Shown: positions 2,382-11,692 of the stretch, piece after piece | Layout: each line of letters opens with the position of its first letter | How positions within the stretch are numbered: the stretch's first letter is position 1 | From: Candidatus Multivoradales bacterium | GTDB lineage: Bacteria > Acidobacteriota > Thermoanaerobaculia > Multivoradales > Multivoraceae | DNA: 64,000 nt | Direction: 5' to 3' | Assembly (NCBI GenBank): GCA_965223325.1 | Contig: CBDCWI010000002.1 | Span: 4,160,001-4,224,000, forward strand | Made by a program: the position numbers and the translations under genes | The notes under the pieces: model-generated | What the model was told of the DNA's origin: nothing | The model's input: the letters and a program-made list of their open reading frames with translations, nothing else | Databases searched by the model: none

Positions 2382-2465
2382 GCACAACAACCGCATTCAG
2401 CGCGACTCGTACCCGCGCTCGCTGCGCTCGCTCGGGCACGAGCGGCTGATGCTCGTCCGTTGGAC
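2382..2465 (+). repeat. attC site 4
   Basis: gcacaac...gttggac. Confidence 0.9.
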
Positions 2466-2483
2466 AGCCTTGAGGCAACCACC

Positions 2484-3170
2484 TTGAATAGGTCAAGAGA
2501 TCGTGTGCTTGTGACATGTTGGAGCGTGGCTATGTCGCTCACTCTCGTGTCCTGTGCCGAGGAGTCAGAAGCTATGAAGCTCTTCAGAAGGTCCGTTTCC
2601 GTAGAGACTCAGTTGGCGGAACTCCGATCCTGCGGCATTGAGCTGAACGAGGGAGTCGAGATCGGCGATCTGACGACTTTCGACGACCGCGCTGCGCTGG
2701 AGAAGCGGCCCTACCAGGGCCTCGTTGAGGTTTTGGGTATCGACGTCGAGCGTGAACCGTTCACCCCTATCTGCGACTCGCTGTGGATGTGCGACTACGA
2801 GAGGGTCGAAGATCACGGGGCGTACGCTGAGGTCCTCGAGCGCCTTGAGCTCATGACAGGCTCAGCCTTGGGGTTATCCGACATAGAAGATCACGTTGAC
2901 GTCTTCGACGAAGGCGTTGCTTGGGTCTCGTTTACGTTCGGCGGCCAGCCGCACAGGTGGGATTTCGAGGTGCAAGATGACTGGCTCGATCCCACCGTTT
3001 TCGTGAAATACGATCAGATGCTGAAGGCCGCTGAGTCTGAAGTGAGGATCTACTCGAACCATACCGACTACGGACAAGTGGCATTTCTCGCGGCCTTCAG
3101 CGCGTCACAGCACCGGTGCTTTGAGAAGCTGTCCCCGGTGAAGTTGATGCAGATCGAGTACCAGGCATGA
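2484..3170 (+). CDS. Hypothetical acidic (lipo)protein, cassette copy 1
   Basis: Fills the cassette between attC4 and attC5; probable TTG start after a GAGG RBS; LVSC lipobox-like motif; start uncertain. Confidence 0.75.
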   Translation: MNRSRDRVLVTCWSVAMSLTLVSCAEESEAMKLFRRSVSVETQLAELRSCGIELNEGVEIGDLTTFDDRAALEKRPYQGLVEVLGIDVEREPFTPICDSLWMCDYERVEDHGAYAEVLERLELMTGSALGLSDIEDHVDVFDEGVAWVSFTFGGQPHRWDFEVQDDWLDPTVFVKYDQMLKAAESEVRIYSNHTDYGQVAFLAAFSASQHRCFEKLSPVKLMQIEYQA

Positions 3171-3995: not shown

Positions 3996-4024
3996 GGCTG
4001 GCGCGCCGCGATACAATCAGGACC

Positions 4025-4267
4025 ATGACTGACGACGCCGCTGCCGTTCTCGAGCAAGCCCTGGTCCTGGACGAGTCATCCCGGGCTGACGTGGCTGCCG
4101 CCCTCATTCGAAGTCTTGAGCCTCCTGAGGAGGCAGACGTCGAAGAGGCCTGGCGCGAAGAGGTTCGCCGGCGCCTCGACGACTACAAGGCAGGCGAGAC
4201 CTCGACGGTCCCTTGGTCAGAAGTGCGCGATCAGCTCTTCTCGAGGTTGCGTGCCGCTAGAGGTTGA
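4025..4267 (+). CDS. Addiction module antitoxin (TIGR02574-like)
   Basis: EEAWREEVRRRLDDYKAG..VPWSEV motif; overlaps the downstream toxin. Confidence 0.88.
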   Translation: MTDDAAAVLEQALVLDESSRADVAAALIRSLEPPEEADVEEAWREEVRRRLDDYKAGETSTVPWSEVRDQLFSRLRAARG

Positions 4268-5211: not shown

Positions 5212-5294
5212 GCCCAACAACTCACTCCACGCGACGCAAACCCGCTTCCGCTTCGCTCCAGCGGGCCTGCGCGCGTGAGCCTTGTCCGTTGGAC
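5212..5294 (+). repeat. attC site 8
   Basis: gcccaac...gttggac. Confidence 0.88.
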
Positions 5295-6095
5295 AGCCTT
5301 GAGGCAACCACCTTGAATAGGTCAAGAGATCGTGTGCTTGTGACATGTTGGAGCGTGGCTATGTCGCTCACTCTCGTGTCCTGTGCCGAGGAGTCAGAAG
5401 CTATGAAGCTCTTCAGAAGGTCCGTTTCCGTAGAGACTCAGTTGGCGGAACTCCGATCCTGCGGCATTGAGCTGAACGAGGGAGTCGAGATCGGCGATCT
5501 GACGACTTTCGACGACCGCGCTGCGCTGGAGAAGCGGCCCTACCAGGGCCTCGTTGAGGTTTTGGGTATCGACGTCGAGCGTGAACCGTTCACCCCTATC
5601 TGCGACTCGCTGTGGATGTGCGACTACGAGAGGGTCGAAGATCACGGGGCGTACGCTGAGGTCCTCGAGCGCCTTGAGCTCATGACAGGCTCAGCCTTGG
5701 GGTTATCCGACATAGAAGATCACGTTGACGTCTTCGACGAAGGCGTTGCTTGGGTCTCGTTTACGTTCGGCGGCCAGCCGCACAGGTGGGATTTCGAGGT
5801 GCAAGATGACTGGCTCGATCCCACCGTTTTCGTGAAATACGATCAGATGCTGAAGGCCGCTGAGTCTGAAGTGAGGATCTACTCGAACCATACCGACTAC
5901 GGACAAGTGGCATTTCTCGCGGCCTTCAGCGCGTCACAGCACCGGTGCTTTGAGAAGCTGTCCCCGGTGAAGTTGATGCAGATCGAGTACCAGGCATGAG
6001 AGTTCCCCAGTGCGGCTGTCCAACAACCACGTGCACTGGACGCGTACCCCGCACTCGCTTCGCTCGCGCGGGCTCCGCGCCAGTGACGTTCGTCC
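5288..6095 (+). repeat. Exact duplicate of cassette 2459-3266
   Basis: Identical by eye at offset 2829; ends at the attC crossover points. Confidence 0.95.
5313..5999 (+). CDS. Hypothetical acidic (lipo)protein, cassette copy 2
   Basis: Identical to 2484-3170. Confidence 0.75.
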   Translation: MNRSRDRVLVTCWSVAMSLTLVSCAEESEAMKLFRRSVSVETQLAELRSCGIELNEGVEIGDLTTFDDRAALEKRPYQGLVEVLGIDVEREPFTPICDSLWMCDYERVEDHGAYAEVLERLELMTGSALGLSDIEDHVDVFDEGVAWVSFTFGGQPHRWDFEVQDDWLDPTVFVKYDQMLKAAESEVRIYSNHTDYGQVAFLAAFSASQHRCFEKLSPVKLMQIEYQA

Positions 6096-6102: not shown

Positions 6103-6484
6103 TGCGCAGGGCACAGTCTAGGTAGCGGCCGGGGCATCGCGAGCTCAGCACGTTGCGCTATCGTCGCGGCCGATTCCGCCGAGCCGTTCGCGGGTGCCGA
6201 CCGTCACGTTCCCGCGGAAACGTTCCGGCGCCACCGCCGGCCCGCGGTGCCGCTCGGCCGGCAAGCTGTACCAGTCGGCCAAGGCCGGGCGGGCACTGGT
6301 TCCTTCTCGTAGCTGTTCAGCGGTGCAAGAATGTGCCTGTACCTGCGCCGTGCAGCCCTCGTCTCTCACCCGGCCGGCGCTACGGAGACCGGGCCGGTTC
6401 GTGGCTCGTGCCTTCTCGTCGAAGAACGCTGCGAGGATCTGAAGCGAACGTCAGCCATGGCAGCCGAAGAGAGCGCAGTACAAC
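6096..6484. other. ORF-less gene cassette B
   Basis: Homologous to 9379-9767; no conserved ORF; near-palindrome at 6207-6222. Confidence 0.7.
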
Positions 6485-6560
6485 AACCCGGTCAACTCGA
6501 CATGAACACGCGTCCGCTTCGCTCCCGCGCGTTCATGCGAGTTACCGTCGTCCGTTGGGA
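6478..6560 (+). repeat. attC site 10
   Basis: gtacaac...gttggga. Confidence 0.88.
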
Positions 6561-7194: not shown

Positions 7195-7661
7195 GGCCTA
7201 AACTCGAGATTGCTGGCGCGCTGCTAGCCGGCGCGTTTCTCATAGCCTCGCCTCTCTCGGCGGGCGTAGGTCTGTGTGCGACCGTGGACGACGTTCAGGT
7301 TCTTGAGGAAGCGAACGGCTCGGCCACGGCAGTGAGAGTCTCCGGAGTGCATGACATCGGCGGACCTATCGACGTCATCGTGGTGTCGCTCGAAGTGCCC
7401 GGTCGGATTGCTGCCGAAGTGCACGTCTGCGGCGGCCCCAACATCCCGACCTCGTTCGACGAGACGCTTCCTCTGCCTGTTCTGCCGAAGGGCAGCTACC
7501 AACTGGAGACCATAGTCGTAGCTTGCAACTCGGAAGACAACCGCGAGTTGTGTAGCGTTACGCCCTTCGAGATCACCGTGAGTCCTATCCCGACCATGGG
7601 TAGGGCCGGGCTTGCGGCCTTGGCGATCCTCCTTCTCTGGTCAGCCAGGAGACGGCTGTGA
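7191..7661 (+). CDS. Secreted protein with IPTL-CTERM sorting tail (cassette)
   Basis: Signal peptide; C-terminal SPIPTMGRAGLAALAILLLWSARRRL (IPT-motif, TM helix, basic cluster). Confidence 0.8.
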   Translation: MRPKLEIAGALLAGAFLIASPLSAGVGLCATVDDVQVLEEANGSATAVRVSGVHDIGGPIDVIVVSLEVPGRIAAEVHVCGGPNIPTSFDETLPLPVLPKGSYQLETIVVACNSEDNRELCSVTPFEITVSPIPTMGRAGLAALAILLLWSARRRL

Positions 7662-7706
7662 CGGTCAGGGCAGGCACGAGAGAACACGCCAAGCGGCCGC
7701 CCAACA

Positions 7707-8181
7707 CCTATGAGGTCCCCTGACGTCAAGCGGCAAACGTCTCCTAGCGGACGCGGTCCGTAACGGTTTTCGGTCAGGTTTCGAATTCTGACTTTGGTTT
7801 CAGAGTGGGTGCGAGGCGAAGCCTCTGCACCAAACACCTATTGGGCCTCTGCCCTCGCCGAAGCGACGACTGCTGGCAGAGCCAGCGGACCAGAAACACA
7901 TCGGTGCCCTCGTACCGTCCGATTCAAACCGTGCTGGTCACGCCGGTGGCGTGCCGGAGTTGGTTGCCTGGTTCGGGTGAGGGGCAGAGGTCGAGATCGA
8001 CCGAATGCTGGCAGGTGAGTGGGAAGCCTCGTCCATTCAACCGGTCTGGCTGCCGGCTCTTGTGTCTCAGGCGCGTTGGGTGTCGATGCACCTGGAGCGG
8101 GTACTCCAATGAAGCGCCAAGGATGAGATCGGGCCGTGTGGCTCCAGTTAGGCGGAGGGCTCGAGGCTTCCAACTCGGAGA
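7707..8181 (-). ncRNA. Putative bridge RNA / seekRNA region of the IS1111-type element (copy 1)
   Basis: ~475-nt hairpin-rich non-coding end downstream of tnp, where IS1111-family guide RNAs are encoded; conserved in copy 2. Confidence 0.7.
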
Positions 8182-9225
8182 TCAAGCGTTCATGAAGGTC
8201 GGGGGGTGGAAGGCTTCGTTGTTCTTGAGCATGAAGTAGACGGCGCGGCCCAGCTTGTGGCGGAGCACGGCGTAGGCCTTGGTCTTGCCGTGCTTGCGCT
8301 TGAGGCGCTCGAGCATCTTCTTGCCGTGAGCCTGGCGCTGAGCGAAGAGCACGGCGGCCTCAGAGAAAGCCCACTTGAGGTGGTGGTTGCCGATCTTGTG
8401 GCGACCGCTGCCGGTTCGCTTGCCTGCAGACTCATGCTGCGGTCGGATCAGCCTGGCGTAGGAGGCAAACTGCTGCACGGTGGGAAACCTCGAGATGTCT
8501 TCGATCTCGTAGAGCATCGTCATGCCGAGGATAGGACCGACGCCGGGAATCGAAGTGAGGCGCGACAGTACGCTTGGATCGTGATCCTTGGCCAGAGCGA
8601 AGAGATGCCTCTCGACATCGGAGATCACCTCGTCGAAGGCCGCGATGAGTCGCTAGTTGGCGTCGATACTTTTCTTCGCTGACGGATCATCGAAGTGATG
8701 GAGGAGATCCGTGCGGTCCGACGGCCTGGCGATCCTGCCGAGCGACGTGTCGCAGTTGTACTGAGTGTTCGAGGTGCGGATGTGGACGAAGAGCTCGGCG
8801 CGCTTGCGTGTGAAGTACTGGCGCCTGCGCAGGAGATCTCTCGCGGCTCTCATCTTCTTGGGATAGGTGTAGGCCATTGGAAAGGTCCCGCCTCGTAGGA
8901 GGGCGGCGAGCTTGTAGGAATCGACCTTGTCGTTCTTGGCCTTGGCGCCGTGGATCGCGCTCATATAGAGGGCGTGGCCAAGCACGAATTCGATTCCCTC
9001 CTCGGCGCAGAGGTCGGCGAGCCAGTACCAGGAGAACATGCACTCGACACCCACGACCAGATCGTCTCGGAAGGGTTCGATGGCCTCGAGGAAGGCATCA
9101 GGCCGAGCGGGGATGTTTCGGTGGTAGATCTTCTCGCCGTCCTCGTCGAGGACGCAGAGGTACATCTTGCGAGCATGCAGATCGACACCGCAGGTGTGGC
9201 GATGACGGCGGTTGTAGAATCGCAT
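8182..9225 (-). pseudogene. IS110-family DEDD recombinase/transposase with one in-frame stop (TAG at 8653-8655)
   Basis: GVDLH / VEC / KNDKVDS RuvC-like DEDD motifs and C-terminal SIPGVG...HESAGK; the two ORFs are in the same frame (347 codons if read through). Confidence 0.92.
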
Positions 9226-9378
9226 CGAGGTCTCCTTGAAAAGAGTTTCTGTTTTACCGCTCGCAAGCTACCGCGTGGGTAGCTCGCCAGGGGACCTCAA
9301 TGATCTTCAATCGGATGGAGCCGACGAGAACCTGCGCTCGCTTCGCTCGCGGCAGTTCCCGCGGCTCTTCCTCGTTCC

Positions 9379-9767
9379 GTTGTACTGCGCAGGCACCGCC
9401 TGGGTAGCGGGCAGGGCGTCGCGAGCTCAGAACGTCGCGAGATCGTGGCGGCCGGTTCTGCCGGGCCGTTCGCTTGTGCCGGTCGCGACGTTCCCGCGGG
9501 AACGTCGCAGCGTCGCCCACCGCCCTGCGGTGCAGCTCGGCCGCTTCGGTGTGCTCGTCGGTCAGGGCCAGGCGGGCGCCGTGTTCTTCTCGCAGTCGCT
9601 CGGCGGTGCAAGAATGGGCCGGTACCTGCGCCGTGCAGCTCTCGTCTCTCACCCGGTCGGCGCTACGAAGGCCGGGTCGTTTCGTGGCTCGAGCTTTCTC
9701 GTTGAAGAACGCCGCGAGGATCGGAAGCGAACGTCAGCCAGGGCATCCGAAGAGAGCGCAGTACAAC
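9379..9767. other. ORF-less cassette C (homolog of B), fused to the downstream ORF
   Basis: Roughly 80% identical to 6096-6484 by eye; 24-bp perfect palindrome at 9485-9508. Confidence 0.7.
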
Positions 9768-9770
9768 GAC

Positions 9771-10274
9771 GTGGCTGAGATCCGCTGCACGAAGAAGCTG
9801 CTCGGTCGGTTCCAGCAGGAGCGTGGAGTGCAAGTCAGCGGCGGCGCCGCTCTAGGCAACTGGGTCGCGAACATCGTTCCCGTCTTCGGGGGTGAGGTTG
9901 TACTTGCGCTGAACGAGCTTTACTTGCTCACGCTCGTCCTGCCCTCCGATCGGCTCGAGAGACTTCCGGAGACGGTCGGTGCCGAGGCGTCCAAGGTGCT
10001 TCTTACGGCCGGCGCTCCACCGGCCTTTGCCGGCGCGGTCCAAGCTGAGGCTGCCAGCGCCTTGATCGCGCAGAACAGAAGTCGGCACTTCGTTGGTTTG
10101 CTGAACCAGGTCTCGGCGGCCGTGCAAGAGTGGGCAGAGCTTCCGTCACCCTTCCTTATTCGCAACCAGGCTGAGATGGAGAACCGGCTCCTGGGTTGGC
10201 TCTACGGGCCACATCCGAACTACCGCCACCCCAAGGACGAGATCGCCAGAGCAATCGAGCGCTTCCGTGAGTAG
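9771..10274 (+). CDS. DUF6933-like protein
   Basis: GTG start; IRCTKKLL...LGNWVAN...LALNE..LLTLVLP...NRSRHFVGLLNQ pattern. Confidence 0.7.
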   Translation: MAEIRCTKKLLGRFQQERGVQVSGGAALGNWVANIVPVFGGEVVLALNELYLLTLVLPSDRLERLPETVGAEASKVLLTAGAPPAFAGAVQAEAASALIAQNRSRHFVGLLNQVSAAVQEWAELPSPFLIRNQAEMENRLLGWLYGPHPNYRHPKDEIARAIERFRE

Positions 10275-10378: not shown

Positions 10379-10443
10379 CAGCCACGAACCCCGGCTCGCT
10401 GCGCTCGCTCGGGCTTCGTGCTGCTGAGCCTTGTCCGCTGGGC
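10379..10443 (+). repeat. Degenerate attC remnant (no AAC box; core GCT)
   Basis: Central arms resemble attC6 and attC11; ends ttgtcc-gctgggc. Confidence 0.7.
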
Positions 10444-10453
10444 CGCACCTGGT

Positions 10454-10478
10454 GGTAGCATGGTATCCGTGCTATCAT
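10454..10478 (+). promoter_or_regulatory. higBA operator inverted repeat overlapping an extended -10 (TGcTATCAT)
   Basis: tagcatgg-tat-ccgtgcta; TATCAT 6 nt before GTG 10485. Confidence 0.6.
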
Positions 10479-10484
10479 GTTTGC

Positions 10485-10781
10485 GTGATTCGGTCGTTCG
10501 CAGACGCCGGTACTGAGGACATCTTCAACGGTCGGAACACTCGGGCCGCAAGGAAGTCGTGCCCGCGCAACCTTTGGAACGTGGCCGCGCGCAAGCTGGA
10601 ACAGATCGACGCCGCTGAGGAGTTCGACGATCTGCGAGTCCCACCGGGAAACAGGCTAGAGGCGCTGTCAAGAGACCGAAAGGGACAGTTCAGTATCCGA
10701 GTCAACTCTCAGTACCGCATCTGTTTCGTCTGGACTCCGTCCGGCCCGGACGAAGTGGAGATCGTCGACTACCACCGCTAG
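10485..10781 (+). CDS. higB: HigB (RelE-like) toxin
   Basis: IRSFAD...DLRVPPGNRLEALSRDRKGQFSIRVNSQYRICFVW...EVEIVDYH. Confidence 0.95.
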   Translation: MIRSFADAGTEDIFNGRNTRAARKSCPRNLWNVAARKLEQIDAAEEFDDLRVPPGNRLEALSRDRKGQFSIRVNSQYRICFVWTPSGPDEVEIVDYHR

Positions 10782-10789
10782 AGGTCGCC

Positions 10790-11104
10790 ATGGTTCGCAT
10801 TCCCACTCACCGCACCCCAACTCATCCCGGCGTTATGCTGCTCGAGGACTTCCTCGAACCGATGGGCATCTCGCAGCGCGAACTGGCCGATGGGATTCGC
10901 GTTCCGTACCAGCGGGTCAACGAGCTGGTGAACGGGAAGCGTGGCGTCACGCCTGCCACCGCCCTGCGCCTGGGGAAGTTCTTCGGCATGAGTGCGGGGT
11001 TCTGGATGAACCTTCAACTTCGGTGGGACCTCTTTCACGCCCAGCGATCCGAGGGTGAGGCTCTCAGGAAGATCCGCCAGGTAAAGGTAACCGTGGAGGC
11101 CTGA
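10790..11104 (+). CDS. higA: HigA HTH antitoxin
   Basis: PTHPGVMLLEDFL...KRGVTPATALRLGKFFG..AGFWMNLQ. Confidence 0.95.
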   Translation: MVRIPTHRTPTHPGVMLLEDFLEPMGISQRELADGIRVPYQRVNELVNGKRGVTPATALRLGKFFGMSAGFWMNLQLRWDLFHAQRSEGEALRKIRQVKVTVEA

Positions 11105-11122
11105 GGTGGGCACGGCCCAACA

Positions 11123-11598
11123 CCGATGAGGTCCCCTGACGTCAAGCGGCAAACGTTTCCTAGCGGACGAGGTCCGTAACGGTTTTCGATCAGATTTCGA
11201 TATCTGGCTTTGGTTTCAGAGCGGGTGCGAGGCGAAGCCTCTGCACCAAACACCTATTGGGCCTCTGCCCTCGCTTTCGCGACGACTGCTGGCCTGGGCC
11301 AGCGGACCAGAAACACATCGGTGCCCTCGTACCGTCCGATTCAAACCGTGCTGGTCACGCCGGTGGCGTGCCGGAGTTGGTTGCCTGGTTCGGGTGAGGG
11401 GCAGATGTCGAGATCGACCGAATGCTGGCAGGTGAGTGGGAAGCCTCGTCCATTCAACCGGTCTGGCTGCCGGCTCAGATGTCTCAGGGCGCGTTGGGTG
11501 TCGATGCACCAGGAGCGGGTACTCCGATGAAGCGCGATGGATGAGGTCGGGCCGTGTGGCTCCAATTAGGCGGAGGGCTCGAGGCTTCCGACTCGGAG
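11123..11598 (-). ncRNA. Orphan copy of the IS1111 right end plus putative bridge RNA (no recombinase)
   Basis: Follows gcccaaCA (11115-11122) exactly as copy 1 does; IR at 11127-11138; >90% identical by eye to 7707-8180; homology ends at the position of the tnp stop codon. Confidence 0.75.
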
Positions 11599-11692
11599 TT
11601 CCACCCATCGCGGTGCTTGCTACGATGAAATCCGTGCGCTTCACGGCTTCTGACAAGACGCTTCACACGACCCGGCCGAGGCGTTAGGCCCC

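What the first reader, a model, noticed from the sequence alone, without database searches (positions are those of the whole stretch)
7699..9385. RNA-guided IS1111-type recombinase element inserted site-specifically in an integron attC site
Seen: the element splits attC12 immediately after its AAC box, in the opposite orientation to the cassettes. A CA dinucleotide flanks both ends, 12-bp subterminal IRs lie 4 and 8 nt from it, and a ~475-nt hairpin-rich non-coding end lies downstream of the DEDD recombinase. A second insertion sits at the same gcccaaCA position of another attC (11115-11122). Known: IS1111-attC elements are described in Proteobacteria, and IS110/IS1111 recombinases use bridge/seekRNAs. 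Inference: this is an attC-programmed bridge-recombinase lineage in an Acidobacteriota-like host, and its non-coding end is unusually long. Candidate guide segments, present in both copies: aacacctat (7833-7841) is identical to the end/core junction at 7703-7711; ttgggc (7841-7846) and gttggg (8075-8080) are complementary to the attC AAC box; tccgatt (7918-7924), in an internal loop closed by gaccag/ctggtc, is complementary to the target flank aatcgga. A TTGACG -35 just inside the right IR could form a circle-junction promoter.
Basis: partly seen in the sequence, partly recalled or inferred. Interest (0 to 1): 0.85.

Follow-up and report, generated by a model that had tools for sequence, protein, structure and literature searches.

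The report
Decayed attC-targeting IS1111-type insertion sequence
This is a dead copy of a mobile element that inserts only into integron gene-cassette recombination sites, apparently steered by its own non-coding RNA; the kind is already known, and this copy belongs to a large, little-described branch of it.

Summary
A 1,603-bp IS110/IS1111-type element (7707-9309, tnp on the minus strand) splits the 12th attC of the window just after its GCCCAAC box, antisense to the cassettes. It has 12-bp subterminal inverted repeats, a shared CA dinucleotide at both ends and a 475-nt non-coding region (NCR) 3' of tnp. A second, truncated copy (11123-11599, NCR only) sits at the same attC position.

All 7 copies in the genome lie at this attC position, and all 3 full-length tnp genes are broken.

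The element belongs to a very large 347-aa family found under many phylum labels. Across the family the NCR forms two covarying, paralogous stem/internal-loop modules plus an internal copy of the right-end junction.
- One strand of loop 1 (GCCUAAC, window 8147-8155) is complementary to the attC core.
- Its other strand matches the variable left flank plus the core (permutation p=1e-4).
- The internal junction copy matches the right-end tip in 32 of 36 loci.

This fits the published seekRNA/bridge-RNA mechanism, already demonstrated for the attC-targeting ISKpn4 and ISPst6. No RNA or activity data exist.

Verdict: real, well read, a new member of a known kind.

The parts
7697..7706 (+). Left (5', R'') end of the interrupted attC; the GCCCAAC box is at 7699-7705
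   Evidence: the attC profile hit at 9308-9389 begins at profile position 10, and the missing start lies here
7705..7706 (.). CA (TG on the tnp strand), the dinucleotide shared by target and element; the second copy is at 9308-9309
   Evidence: In 27 distinct family insertions the two junction dinucleotides are TG/TG in 21, differ in 5, and are GG/GG in 1, so this is not a strict target duplication
7707..9309 (-). The insertion sequence, counting one copy of the shared dinucleotide (1,603 bp)
7707..7722 (-). Right end: 4-nt tip (TAGG on the tnp strand) plus the 12-bp subterminal inverted repeat at 7711-7722
7724..7729 (-). TTGACG, the -35 half of a promoter that would form only at the circle junction
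   Evidence: TTGAC sits at a fixed distance from the tip in the right-end profile hits. In 24 modelled junctions, 23 have an 18-nt spacer; the -10 is GATACT or GATAAT in most, but only GAAGAT (3 of 6) here
7707..8181 (-). 3' non-coding region (475 nt), the proposed seek/bridge RNA precursor
   Evidence: Fold: -195.9 kcal/mol against -178.2 +/- 6.5 for shuffles, z = -2.7. Conserved blocks across the family. No Rfam family matches, even at E <= 1
7830..7842 (-). Internal copy of the right-end junction (RNA AAUAGG-UG-UUUGG): a proposed guide for the bottom strand of right-end tip + core + first flank bases
   Evidence: Its pentamer equals the right-end tip pentamer in 32 of 36 loci, across 5 pentamer types
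7809..7829 (-). Hairpin directly 3' of the junction copy (GUGCAGAGG-CUUCG-CCUCGCAC)
   Evidence: compensatory changes are visible in the family rows (read by eye, not counted)
7886..7993 (-). Module 2: basal helices (7979-7983 with 7907-7911; 7969-7976 with 7915-7921), an internal loop with AACCAACU and UUUGAAU, and an apical hairpin; a paralogue of module 1 of uncertain role
   Evidence: 94.3% of cells paired, 45 cells changed on both sides, 0 of 500 shuffles as high
8014..8178 (-). Module 1: closing stem P1 (8163-8172 with 8022-8031), inner stem P2, and internal loop IL1, the proposed target-binding loop
   Evidence: 81.6% of cells paired, 18 of 23 pairs changed on both sides, 0 of 500 shuffles as high
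8147..8155 (-). IL1 5' strand, RNA CCGCCUAAC: complementary to the attC core plus right flank G-TTGGGCGG on the tnp-sense top strand (8 Watson-Crick pairs and 1 G.U at this site)
   Evidence: predicted against actual right flank averages 5.4 of 8 over 24 sites; permutation p = 0.006
8036..8044 (-). IL1 3' strand, RNA CCGGU-UG-AA: the same sense as left flank + core + first 2 nt of the left end (CCGAT-TG-AA here, 8 of 9)
   Evidence: 21 sites, 71 of 126 matches against 49.7 +/- 4.7 when permuted, p = 1e-4; L012 matches 10 of 10
8182..9225 (-). tnp, a DEDD/Ser recombinase pseudogene (347 codons, TAG at 8653-8655)
9226..9307 (-). Left end: inverted repeat at 9288-9299 and an 8-nt tip (AAGATCAT on the tnp strand) at 9300-9307
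9308..9389 (+). Remainder of the interrupted attC (to the R' box GTTGTAC)
   Evidence: profile positions 10-90, E = 2.9e-8
11115..11599 (-). Second copy: the attC box GCCCAAC (11115-11121) followed by a remnant holding only the non-coding end (11123 to about 11599)

Best explanation
**What it is.** The element is a decayed insertion sequence of the IS110/IS1111 superfamily. Its family inserts at one position of integron attC sites: between the RYYYAAC (R'') box and the following A, antisense to the cassettes.

**Proposed mechanism (inferred by analogy with ISEc11/ISKpn4 seekRNA and IS621 bridge RNA).**
1. The element excises as a circle.
2. Joining the ends creates a promoter: TTGAC in the right end, and GATACT-like in the left end.
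3. That promoter drives tnp and, co-transcribed, the 3' non-coding region.
4. The RNA folds into two stem/internal-loop modules.

**How the RNA would read the DNA.**
- Loop 1, 5' strand (GCCUAAC): pairs with the top strand of the attC core, G-TTRRRY.
- Loop 1, 3' strand (NNNNU-UG): pairs with the bottom strand of the variable left flank plus the TG core.
- The two bases after that: match the first bases of the left end, in a handshake-like way.
- A third segment (AUAGG-UG-UU): repeats right-end tip + core + first flank bases, and would hold the donor or right junction.
- The DEDD/Ser recombinase then exchanges strands at the TG dinucleotide.

**What is shown here.**
- The anatomy of the element.
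- Its attC specificity within this genome.
- Family-wide conservation of the RNA helices with compensatory changes.
- Guide/flank and guide/end covariation.

**What is inferred.**
- That the RNA is made and bound by the recombinase.
- The roles assigned to each strand.
- The role of loop 2.

**State of this genome's copies.** The element is extinct here. All three full-length tnp genes are broken, and four copies are remnants.
For: **Protein.**
- Pfam PF01548 (E = 1.5e-14) and PF02371 (E = 3.6e-20).
- IS621 structure 8wt6 matches at E = 3e-8. The Ser of IS621's YES motif aligns with HES (S266), and its DTVD motif with DKVD (D99, D102).

**Site.**
- All 7 of 7 genome copies follow an RYYYAAC box inside or beside attC clusters.
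- The genome has one integron integrase (TIGR02249, 422.7 bits).

**Family.**
- 8,000 of 8,000 scored candidates were significant (the scoring cap). The best 120 are mostly 346-350 aa (nearly all 347) and 57-74% identical, apart from the genome's own fragment.
- 103 relatives were found in genome contigs, and 80 loci were kept.
- Left ends read N-T-TG-ATACT... in 53 profile rows.
- Right ends read TTGAC...IR...ATAxx-[T/G]G-TT... in 58 rows.
- The right flank fits TTRRRY at 5 or more of 6 positions in 26 of 32 distinct flanks.
- An attC covariance model built from this genome gives 28 hits at E <= 1 in 57 loci. Of these, 26 lie on the strand opposite tnp, including a partial attC abutting the left end in L012.

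**RNA.**
- Helices of module 1. Helices of module 2.
- Left-flank guide: p = 1e-4.
- Right-flank guide: p = 0.006 over 8 nt.
- Right-end junction copy: 32 of 36 loci.
- L041 reads GG instead of TG in the loop-1 guide, in the junction copy and at both junctions.
- The order 'top-strand complement 5' of bottom-strand match' is the one reported for IS1111 seekRNAs (PMC11187229, section 9).
Against: - There are no expression or activity data of any kind.
- All full-length tnp genes in this genome are broken.
- No sigma-70-like promoter was found in the integrated element, and the junction -10 is poor in this lineage (3 of 6).
- Left-flank matching is partial: 3.4 of 6 on average. The right-flank test is only p = 0.053 over 6 nt, because guide and target are both conserved.
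- Shared ancestry and host-specific attC consensus inflate such permutation tests.
- Loop 2 shows no clear match to flank or ends: p = 0.05, with some mis-captured rows.
- No segment complementary to the left-end top strand was found as an exact 7-mer or longer.
- The internal junction copy could be a fossil of a duplicated right end. Tandem right-end modules exist in L013, L032, L035 and L050.
- A strict search for the partner R' box left of the element was negative: 1 of 26 sites against 2 in the control window.
- The attC model hit only 15 of 57 loci at E <= 1. That model is narrow, being built from one genome.
- The classical IS1111-attC elements could not be fetched for comparison.
Confidence: 0.82

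Rival explanations
1. The attC specificity is set by the protein, or by recognition of DNA structure (folded attC or the subterminal repeats), not by RNA. On this view the sequence matches in the non-coding end are fossils of duplicated ends and of captured target sequence.
For: - The internal junction copy resembles a degenerate right end, including part of the inverted repeat.
- Some relatives carry 2-3 tandem right-end modules.
- attC sites are structured targets also used by integrases and by group IIC-attC introns (PMC3001079, passage read).
- Left-flank matches are only partial.
Against: - The loop-1 strands sit in a covarying internal loop and track flank differences between lineages. 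L012 matches 10 of 10 and L016 8 of 8; the permutation test gives p = 1e-4.
- The 9-nt junction copy stays identical to the right-end tip while the adjacent repeat relic decays.
- RNA dependence has been shown experimentally for the attC-targeting ISKpn4 and ISPst6, and for ISEc11 (PMC11187229).
Confidence: 0.08
2. The short copies (11123-11599 and the 295- and 190-nt ones elsewhere) are independently mobile RNA modules that hitch-hike on the recombinase, like ssr9 of ISPpu9. On this view they are not deletion remnants.
For: - All 4 partial copies keep the right end exactly at the attC junction.
- Copy B ends at about the tnp stop codon.
- ISPpu9 forms circles of tnp alone, tnp+ssr9 or ssr9 alone (PMC12288879, abstract and section 13).
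Against: - The inner boundaries differ (positions 190, 295 and 485, plus an internal deletion in L004) and show no repeated end box.
- None of the partial copies equals the roughly 129-nt terminal module bounded by the internal junction copy.
- The attC remainder is missing after copy B.
- From memory only (not seen here): Tetu & Holmes 2008 described degenerate IS1111-attC 'footprints' at array ends. That fits copy B and L007, which lie at the ends of their arrays.
Confidence: 0.07
3. The element is not of the IS1111 group proper. It would be a separate IS110-superfamily lineage that arrived at attC targeting and a 3' RNA independently of ISPa21, ISPst6 and ISKpn4.
For: - The terminal tips are 8 and 4 nt outside the shared dinucleotide, not the 7 and 3 (or 6 and 3) given as the IS1111 rule (PMC11187229 introduction).
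- tblastn against 72,556 plasmids shows this family at 45-53% identity, then a gap down to 34% or less.
- Hits annotated as ISEc11-family, and the abundant Klebsiella and E. coli hits, are only 21-24% identical.
Against: - Subterminal repeats of 9-13 bp, a 3' non-coding region, the same attC end and the same antisense orientation as ISPa21 and ISPst6 (PMC3001079).
- ISPst6 is of similar size, about 1.5 kb, judged from the coordinates in PMC11187229.
- The reference sequences themselves were never compared.
Confidence: 0.3

Closest known systems
IS1111-attC group (ISPa21, ISPst6, ISKpn4, ISPa25)
   Same: - They insert near the 5' end of attC sites, antisense to the cassettes (PMC3001079).
- They have a DEDD recombinase, subterminal inverted repeats and a 3' non-coding region.
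- An 82-86-nt seekRNA from that region co-purifies with the recombinase. Its top-strand complement lies 5' of its bottom-strand match (PMC11187229).
   Different: - No sequence comparison was possible. The elements are not in the collections on hand, and the supplementary figures that show their RNAs are closed.
- The tips here are 8 and 4 nt rather than 7 and 3.
- The hosts here carry many phylum labels, not only Pseudomonas and enterobacteria.
ISEc11 (the IS1111 paradigm for seekRNA)
   Same: A junction promoter, a requirement for the 3' non-coding region, and programmable two-strand target matches that overlap at the insertion point (PMC11187229).
   Different: - ISEc11 has a linear, non-attC target.
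- Its 82-nt (long form 154-nt) RNA comes from a region deleted as bp 1170-1374 of 1,443. Here the conserved region is 409-613 nt, with two paralogous loops.
- Plasmid hits annotated as ISEc11 family are about 23% identical.
IS621 bridge RNA (IS110 group)
   Same: - Two internal loops of like architecture.
- Each guide strand reads a different DNA strand around a core dinucleotide.
- Handshake bases match the partner DNA.
- A Ser nucleophile works together with DEDD residues (PMC11208158; alignment).
   Different: - In IS621 the RNA lies 5' of the gene and the guide order is reversed.
- The core is CT, not TG.
- IS621 has no long subterminal repeats.
- Here the second loop does not visibly match the donor; a separate copy of the right-end junction does.
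ISPpu9 with its ssr9 module
   Same: Repeated end boxes downstream of tnp, and solo downstream modules elsewhere in the genome (PMC12288879).
   Different: In ISPpu9, ssr9 is not needed for transposition and the target is a REP sequence. Here the partial copies look like deletion remnants.
Group IIC-attC introns
   Same: Another class of mobile element that is specific for the 5' part of attC and inserts antisense (PMC3001079).
   Different: They are retroelements with a reverse transcriptase and are mechanistically unrelated.

Membership tests
IS110 superfamily (DEDD/Ser recombinases) | N-terminal DEDD (RuvC-like) domain and C-terminal Tnp domain | tested here: met
   PF01548 scores 54.5 bits (cut-off 29) and PF02371 scores 72.6 bits (cut-off 21.3)
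IS110 superfamily (DEDD/Ser recombinases) | Catalytic residues D, E, D, D and the Ser nucleophile | tested here: met
   - DKVD (D99, D102) aligns with IS621 DTVD.
- The HES Ser (S266) aligns with the Ser of IS621's YES.
- D15 and E61 are assigned only by motif position inside the Pfam match; this is inference.
- The gene itself is broken by a TAG at codon 191.
IS1111 group | Subterminal inverted repeats of about 7-17 bp | tested here: met
   12 bp here, and 9-13 bp in relatives
IS1111 group | The longer non-coding region lies downstream of tnp | tested here: met
   475 nt lie 3' of tnp against 84 nt 5' of it; the same holds in relatives
IS1111 group | Terminal extensions of 7 bp (or 6) on the left and 3 bp on the right beyond the repeats | tested here: not met
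   The extensions are 8 and 4 nt outside the shared dinucleotide. If one copy of the dinucleotide is counted in the element, they are 10/4 or 8/6. The rule is as stated in PMC11187229.
IS1111 group | Recombinase related over its full length to that of IS1111 | tested here: inconclusive
   Plasmid hits annotated as ISEc11 family, and the abundant enterobacterial hits, cover 80-96% of the query at 21-24% identity. IS1111 itself was not compared.
IS1111-attC subgroup | Inserted at one position near the 5' (R'') end of attC, antisense to the cassettes | tested here: met
   - 7 of 7 copies in this genome.
- In relatives, 26 of 28 attC-model hits lie opposite tnp.
- 26 of 32 right flanks fit TTRRRY.
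IS1111-attC subgroup | Monophyly with ISPa21 and ISPst6 | not testable with these tools
   The reference sequences are not in the collections. Tetu & Holmes 2008 is not held.
seekRNA / bridge RNA systems | Two RNA segments that match opposite strands of the target and overlap at the insertion point, and that covary with the target | tested here: met
   The loop-1 strands lie at 8147-8155 and 8036-8044. Permutation tests give p = 0.006 and p = 1e-4. L041 shows a covarying core.
seekRNA / bridge RNA systems | RNA transcribed from the non-coding region, bound by the recombinase and required for movement | not testable with these tools
   No RNA run was listed (reported as a blank only).
seekRNA / bridge RNA systems | A promoter assembled at the circle junction | tested here: inconclusive
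   In modelled junctions, the -35 matches at 5-6 of 6 positions, the spacer is 18 nt in 23 of 24, and the -10 matches at 4-5 of 6 in 21 of 24. The window lineage matches at only 3 of 6. This is a sequence match only.
Integron attC site | An imperfect palindrome of about 90 bp running RYYYAAC ... GTTRRRY, repeated between cassettes, with an integron integrase in the genome | tested here: met
   - 14 sites in the window and 52 in the genome.
- The consensus fold has 21 pairs.
- An intI match to TIGR02249 scores 422.7 bits at C2:3807261-3808190, about 352 kb from the window. The window's array is therefore an integrase-less cluster.

The most novel reading that the evidence does not exclude
The 347-aa family would be a distinct, pan-bacterial clade of integron-specific bridge recombinases, separate from the Pseudomonas and enterobacterial IS1111-attC group.

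Its roughly 0.5-kb RNA would be a three-part guide:
- a target loop that reads both the conserved attC core and the host-specific left flank;
- a second, paralogous loop of still unknown partner;
- a right-junction mimic that also makes the element a target for itself, which would explain the tandem right-end modules.

Such RNAs would adapt to each host's attC dialect. That would make them natural, re-programmable parasites of cassette arrays across phyla.
Probability: 0.3. Interest if true: 0.6.

Novelty: new member of a known kind. Interest (0 to 1): 0.4.

Why it matters
attC-specific IS1111 elements are known to invade integron cassette arrays. A commentary in print suggests that such insertions may disrupt attC sites and recombination, and notes that little has been tested (PMC11616780, discussion passage read). 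Their RNA guidance was shown only in 2024, for a few clinical or Pseudomonas elements.

- **Spread.** The same life-style appears in a very large environmental family whose members carry labels of many phyla. Those labels come from metagenome bins, some on short contigs.
- **A testable map.** The comparative evidence shows which RNA strands would read which part of attC: 8147-8155 the core, 8036-8044 the left flank, and 7830-7842 the right end.
- **Use in annotation.** The map is useful for annotating integrons, where these remnants mark interrupted attC sites and, in two cases here, array ends. It may also help in choosing natural bridge recombinases with a defined, structured target.

It does not change the known picture of how such elements work.

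Tried and rejected
**Expression and mobility.**
- The look-up of sequencing runs listed no RNA holder.
- Contigs of four DNA runs were laid on 7300-9800. They broke at the repeat and showed no joint across an empty attC site. Neither result says anything either way.

**Known RNA families.** Rfam gave no match, at gathering thresholds over the whole window or at E <= 1 over 7650-8250.

**First fold of module 1.** RNAalifold on a raw MAFFT alignment that included L056 gave no structure. It worked after L056, L075, L073 and one own-genome copy were dropped, and on alignment A2.

**A guide for the left end.** An exact-match search (7-mers or longer) for a segment complementary to the left-end top strand found nothing consistent.

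**Loop 2.** It was tested as a flank guide. The result was weak (p = 0.05), and several rows were mis-captured by my pattern: win, G2, G3, L089 and L045.

**The R' partner box.** A strict search 35-150 nt left of the element was negative: 1 of 26 sites, against 2 in the control window. The test was too strict for imperfect attC palindromes. The covariance model replaced it.

**Comparison with ISPa21, ISPst6 and ISKpn4.**
- Tetu & Holmes 2008 is not held.
- Post & Hall 2009 was not seen.
- Two plasmid tblastn listings name no such element.
- A literature search for ISKpn4 mostly returned ISKpn40 papers. The search for ISPa21 gave no usable accession.
- The supplementary figures of PMC11187229 that show the ISKpn4, ISPst6 and ISPa25 RNAs are closed. 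They may bear directly on whether the architecture here is the same.

**Host phylum.** It was not tested. The closest relative (74% identity) comes from a bin labelled Acidobacteriota.

**What is in print.**
- 'IS1111-attC' returned 10 papers.
- attC + IS110 + bridge RNA returned 1 paper.
- integron + Acidobacteria + attC + insertion sequence returned 7 papers, of which 5 were listed. I saw the listing only, apart from the one also held as PMC12444791, whose IS1111 passages I read (reference list only).
- None describes this family, as far as those listings show.


Full report
**Anatomy**

On the + strand the window reads gcccaac (7699-7705), with CA at 7705-7706. Four nt further in lies the repeat tgaggtcccctg (7711-7722). 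At the other end caggggacctca (9288-9299) is followed by eight nt, then CA (9308-9309) and atcgga....

Between the repeats, on the minus strand, lies a 347-codon frame (9225-8182) with an in-frame TAG at 8653-8655. Read through, it matches PF01548 and PF02371. It also matches the solved IS621 recombinase (8wt6, E = 3e-8):
- the Ser of IS621's YES motif aligns with S266 here;
- IS621's DTVD aligns with DKVD (D99, D102).

The 475 nt between the stop codon and the right end (7707-8181) hold no long frame worth noting. As RNA of the tnp sense they fold to -195.9 kcal/mol, against -178.2 +/- 6.5 for 100 shuffles.

**The target is an attC**

The first 10.5 kb of the window carry a repeat of about 90 bp, of the form GCCGNCCAAC-AAC...GTCCGTTGGRCGGC.
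- A profile of it finds 14 sites in the window, all on the + strand.
- The 12th (9308-9389) starts at profile position 10. The missing start is the piece left of the element.
- Genome-wide there are 52 hits in 8 clusters.
- The largest cluster (27 hits) follows the only integron integrase: TIGR02249, 422.7 bits, C2:3807261-3808190.
- The window's cluster lies about 352 kb away, so it is an integrase-less array.

**Copies in this genome**

A DNA search finds three full-length copies (the window's, L002 and L003; the two others are 93-94% identical to it). It also finds one copy with an internal deletion (L004) and three remnants that keep only element positions 1-485 (window 11123-11599), 1-295 (L006) and 1-190 (L007).
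- All seven follow an RYYYAAC box, while the other flank differs between copies (ATCGGA, ACCAGC, AACAGC, ACCGGG).
- All seven lie in or next to attC clusters.
- All three full-length genes are broken: a stop codon here and frameshifts in L002 and L003.
- The window remnant and L007 lie at the ends of their arrays.

**The family**

The protein search was saturated: 8,000 of 8,000 scored candidates were significant. The best 120 are mostly 346-350 aa (nearly all 347) and 57-74% identical, apart from the genome's own fragment at 96%.

In genome contigs, 103 relatives were found and 80 loci kept. Their record titles name Acidobacteriota (74% identity), Desulfobacterota, Gammaproteobacteria, Planctomycetota and others. 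Bin labels on short contigs are weak evidence of host.

Plasmids show the family at 45-53% identity, followed by a gap to 34% or less. A Vibrio campbellii plasmid copy (L093) carries every block described below. The abundant enterobacterial IS1111-type hits are 21-24% identical.

Ends are conserved across the family:
- left end N-T-TG-ATACTCAT-repeat (53 profile rows);
- right end TTGAC-...-repeat-ATAxx-[T/G]G-TT... (58 rows).

Flanks and context:
- The right flank fits TTRRRY at 5 or more of 6 positions in 26 of 32 distinct flanks.
- A covariance model built from 18 attC sites of this genome gave 28 hits at E <= 1 in 57 loci of relatives.
- Of those hits, 26 lie on the strand opposite tnp. 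L012 has five full sites and one partial site abutting the left end.
- The model is narrow, and only 15 of the 57 loci had any hit.

The two junction dinucleotides are TG/TG in 21 of 27 distinct insertions and differ in 5. They therefore behave as a recombination core rather than as a target duplication.

**The non-coding region**

Across relatives it is 409-613 nt long in the 16 loci with clean ends. It shares ordered blocks.

Module 1 (window 8014-8178)
- It has a long closing stem and an inner stem. On 15 sequences, 81.6% of cells pair and 18 of 23 pairs show changes on both sides.
- 0 of 500 shuffles reach this, and slid registers give 36-51% pairing.
- The stems enclose an internal loop.

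Loop 1, 5' strand
- It is family-invariant ...CUAACUG..., and reads CCGCCUAAC in the window (8147-8155).
- Its reverse complement predicts the right flank: TTAGGCGG against the actual TTGGGCGG here.
- Over 24 sites the mean match is 5.4 of 8. Permutation gives p = 0.006 over 8 nt and 0.053 over 6 nt.

Loop 1, 3' strand
- It reads N6-UG-A(A/U). In the window it is CCGGU-UG-AA (8036-8044), against left flank + core + left end CCGAT-TG-AA.
- L012 matches 10 of 10 and L016 8 of 8.
- Over 21 distinct sites, 71 of 126 positions match, against 49.7 +/- 4.7 when guides are permuted (p = 1e-4).
- The two bases after the core are AA where the left end starts AAGATC (window lineage, L012) and AU where it starts ATACT. 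That is a two-state character, so weak evidence.

Module 2 (7886-7993)
- It repeats the design (..CUAACU.. and ..UUUGAAU..). Its basal helices are 94.3% paired on 32 sequences, with 45 cells changed on both sides and 0 of 500 shuffles as high.
- Its strands do not track the flank (p = 0.05), and I could not assign a partner.

The junction copy
- AAUAGG-UG-UUUGG (7830-7842) repeats right-end tip + core + TT.
- Its pentamer equals the right-end tip pentamer in 32 of 36 loci, across five types: ATAGG, ATAAG, ATAGA, ATATG and ACATG.
- The four exceptions (L086, L016-L018) differ at one base.

One element (L041) has GG instead of TG in the loop-1 guide, in the junction copy and at both junctions.

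**Mechanism**

These features map onto published schemes.
- In IS1111-type elements, an RNA of 70-100 nt (long form 145-170 nt) from the 3' region co-purifies with the recombinase and is required for circle formation and insertion.
- That RNA carries a top-strand complement 5' of a bottom-strand match, overlapping at the insertion point. This was shown for ISEc11, ISPa11 and the attC-targeting ISKpn4 and ISPst6 (PMC11187229; abstract, passages and sections 8-10, 13 and 14 read).
- In IS621, two like loops each read both strands around a core, and handshake bases pair with the partner DNA after exchange (PMC11208158, passages).

Loop 1 therefore looks like a target-binding loop, and the junction copy like the guide for the right end.

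The junction promoter is plausible family-wide. The -35 is TTGACN, the spacer is 18 nt in 23 of 24 modelled junctions, and the -10 is GATACT or GATAAT in most. It is weak here (GAAGAT). The integrated element shows no promoter match. All of this is inference from sequence.

Only aacacctat survives.
- ttgggc (7841-7846) is the decayed tail of an inverted-repeat relic and is not conserved.
- gttggg (8075-8080) lies in the variable apical arm.
- tccgatt (7918-7924) overlaps helix positions 7919-7921. It is unchanged in sister copies that sit beside other flanks.

**Comparison and novelty**

ISPa21 and ISPst6 are described as inserting near the 5' end of attC, antisense to the cassettes, and as forming a monophyletic IS1111-attC subgroup (PMC3001079, discussion passage). 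Behaviour and layout here are the same.

One defining detail of IS1111 is not met: tips of 7 and 3 bp. I could not compare sequences with the classical group. Whether this family includes it or stands beside it stays open.

Either way the kind is known, and this is a new, decayed member, with a useful comparative map of its RNA.

Noticed in passing
L013 (right ends at 1651-1691, 1800-1840, 4021-4066, 4171-4216); L050 (3944, 4072, 4200); L032 (4058, 4135, 4265); L035 (2229, 2371): Some relatives carry 2-3 tandem copies of the terminal right-end module (roughly 75-150 nt apart). Each copy ends in the same ATAxx-TG and is followed by TTTGG-like sequence. This suggests recombination between the true right junction and the internal junction copy.
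   Followed up: partly
G000 C2:3807261-3808190, and attC hits at C2:3808968-3828920: The genome's only integron integrase is followed by an array of at least 27 attC sites that holds three of the IS copies (L002, L004, L007). The window's array, one at C2:4398808-4401560 and one at C1:2123311-2123872 are integrase-less clusters.
   Followed up: partly
window 2394-2693 with 5223-5522; 6234-6487 with 9517-9770; 6110-6243 with 9392-9525: Duplicated cassette sequence within the array, at 93%, 84% and 78% identity. The cassette just right of the interrupted attC is a diverged copy of the one at about 6110-6490.
   Followed up: no
L008/L010 (G000 C2:980961-981234): Short fragments 76-83% identical to tnp and to the left end of the element lie near attC hits at C2:982441-982742. 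This is an older, more decayed relative.
   Followed up: no
L092 (P. aeruginosa plasmid NZ_CP093017.1, 355872-361852): A 34%-identical IS110-family gene has the same layout: 9-bp subterminal repeats, TTGAC near the right end, a 3' region of about 400 nt and a GCCAACUGG motif just after the stop codon. Its ends and flanks are different, so it is a more distant lineage, probably with another target.
   Followed up: partly
window 10431-11104: Two small adjacent frames (10431-10781 and 10790-11104, + strand) form the cassette directly left of the second copy's attC box. They were not analysed.
   Followed up: no
L023 (left ends at 2401 and 5135); L013 (two elements): Some loci of relatives hold two copies of the element within a few kb, as the window does.
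   Followed up: no
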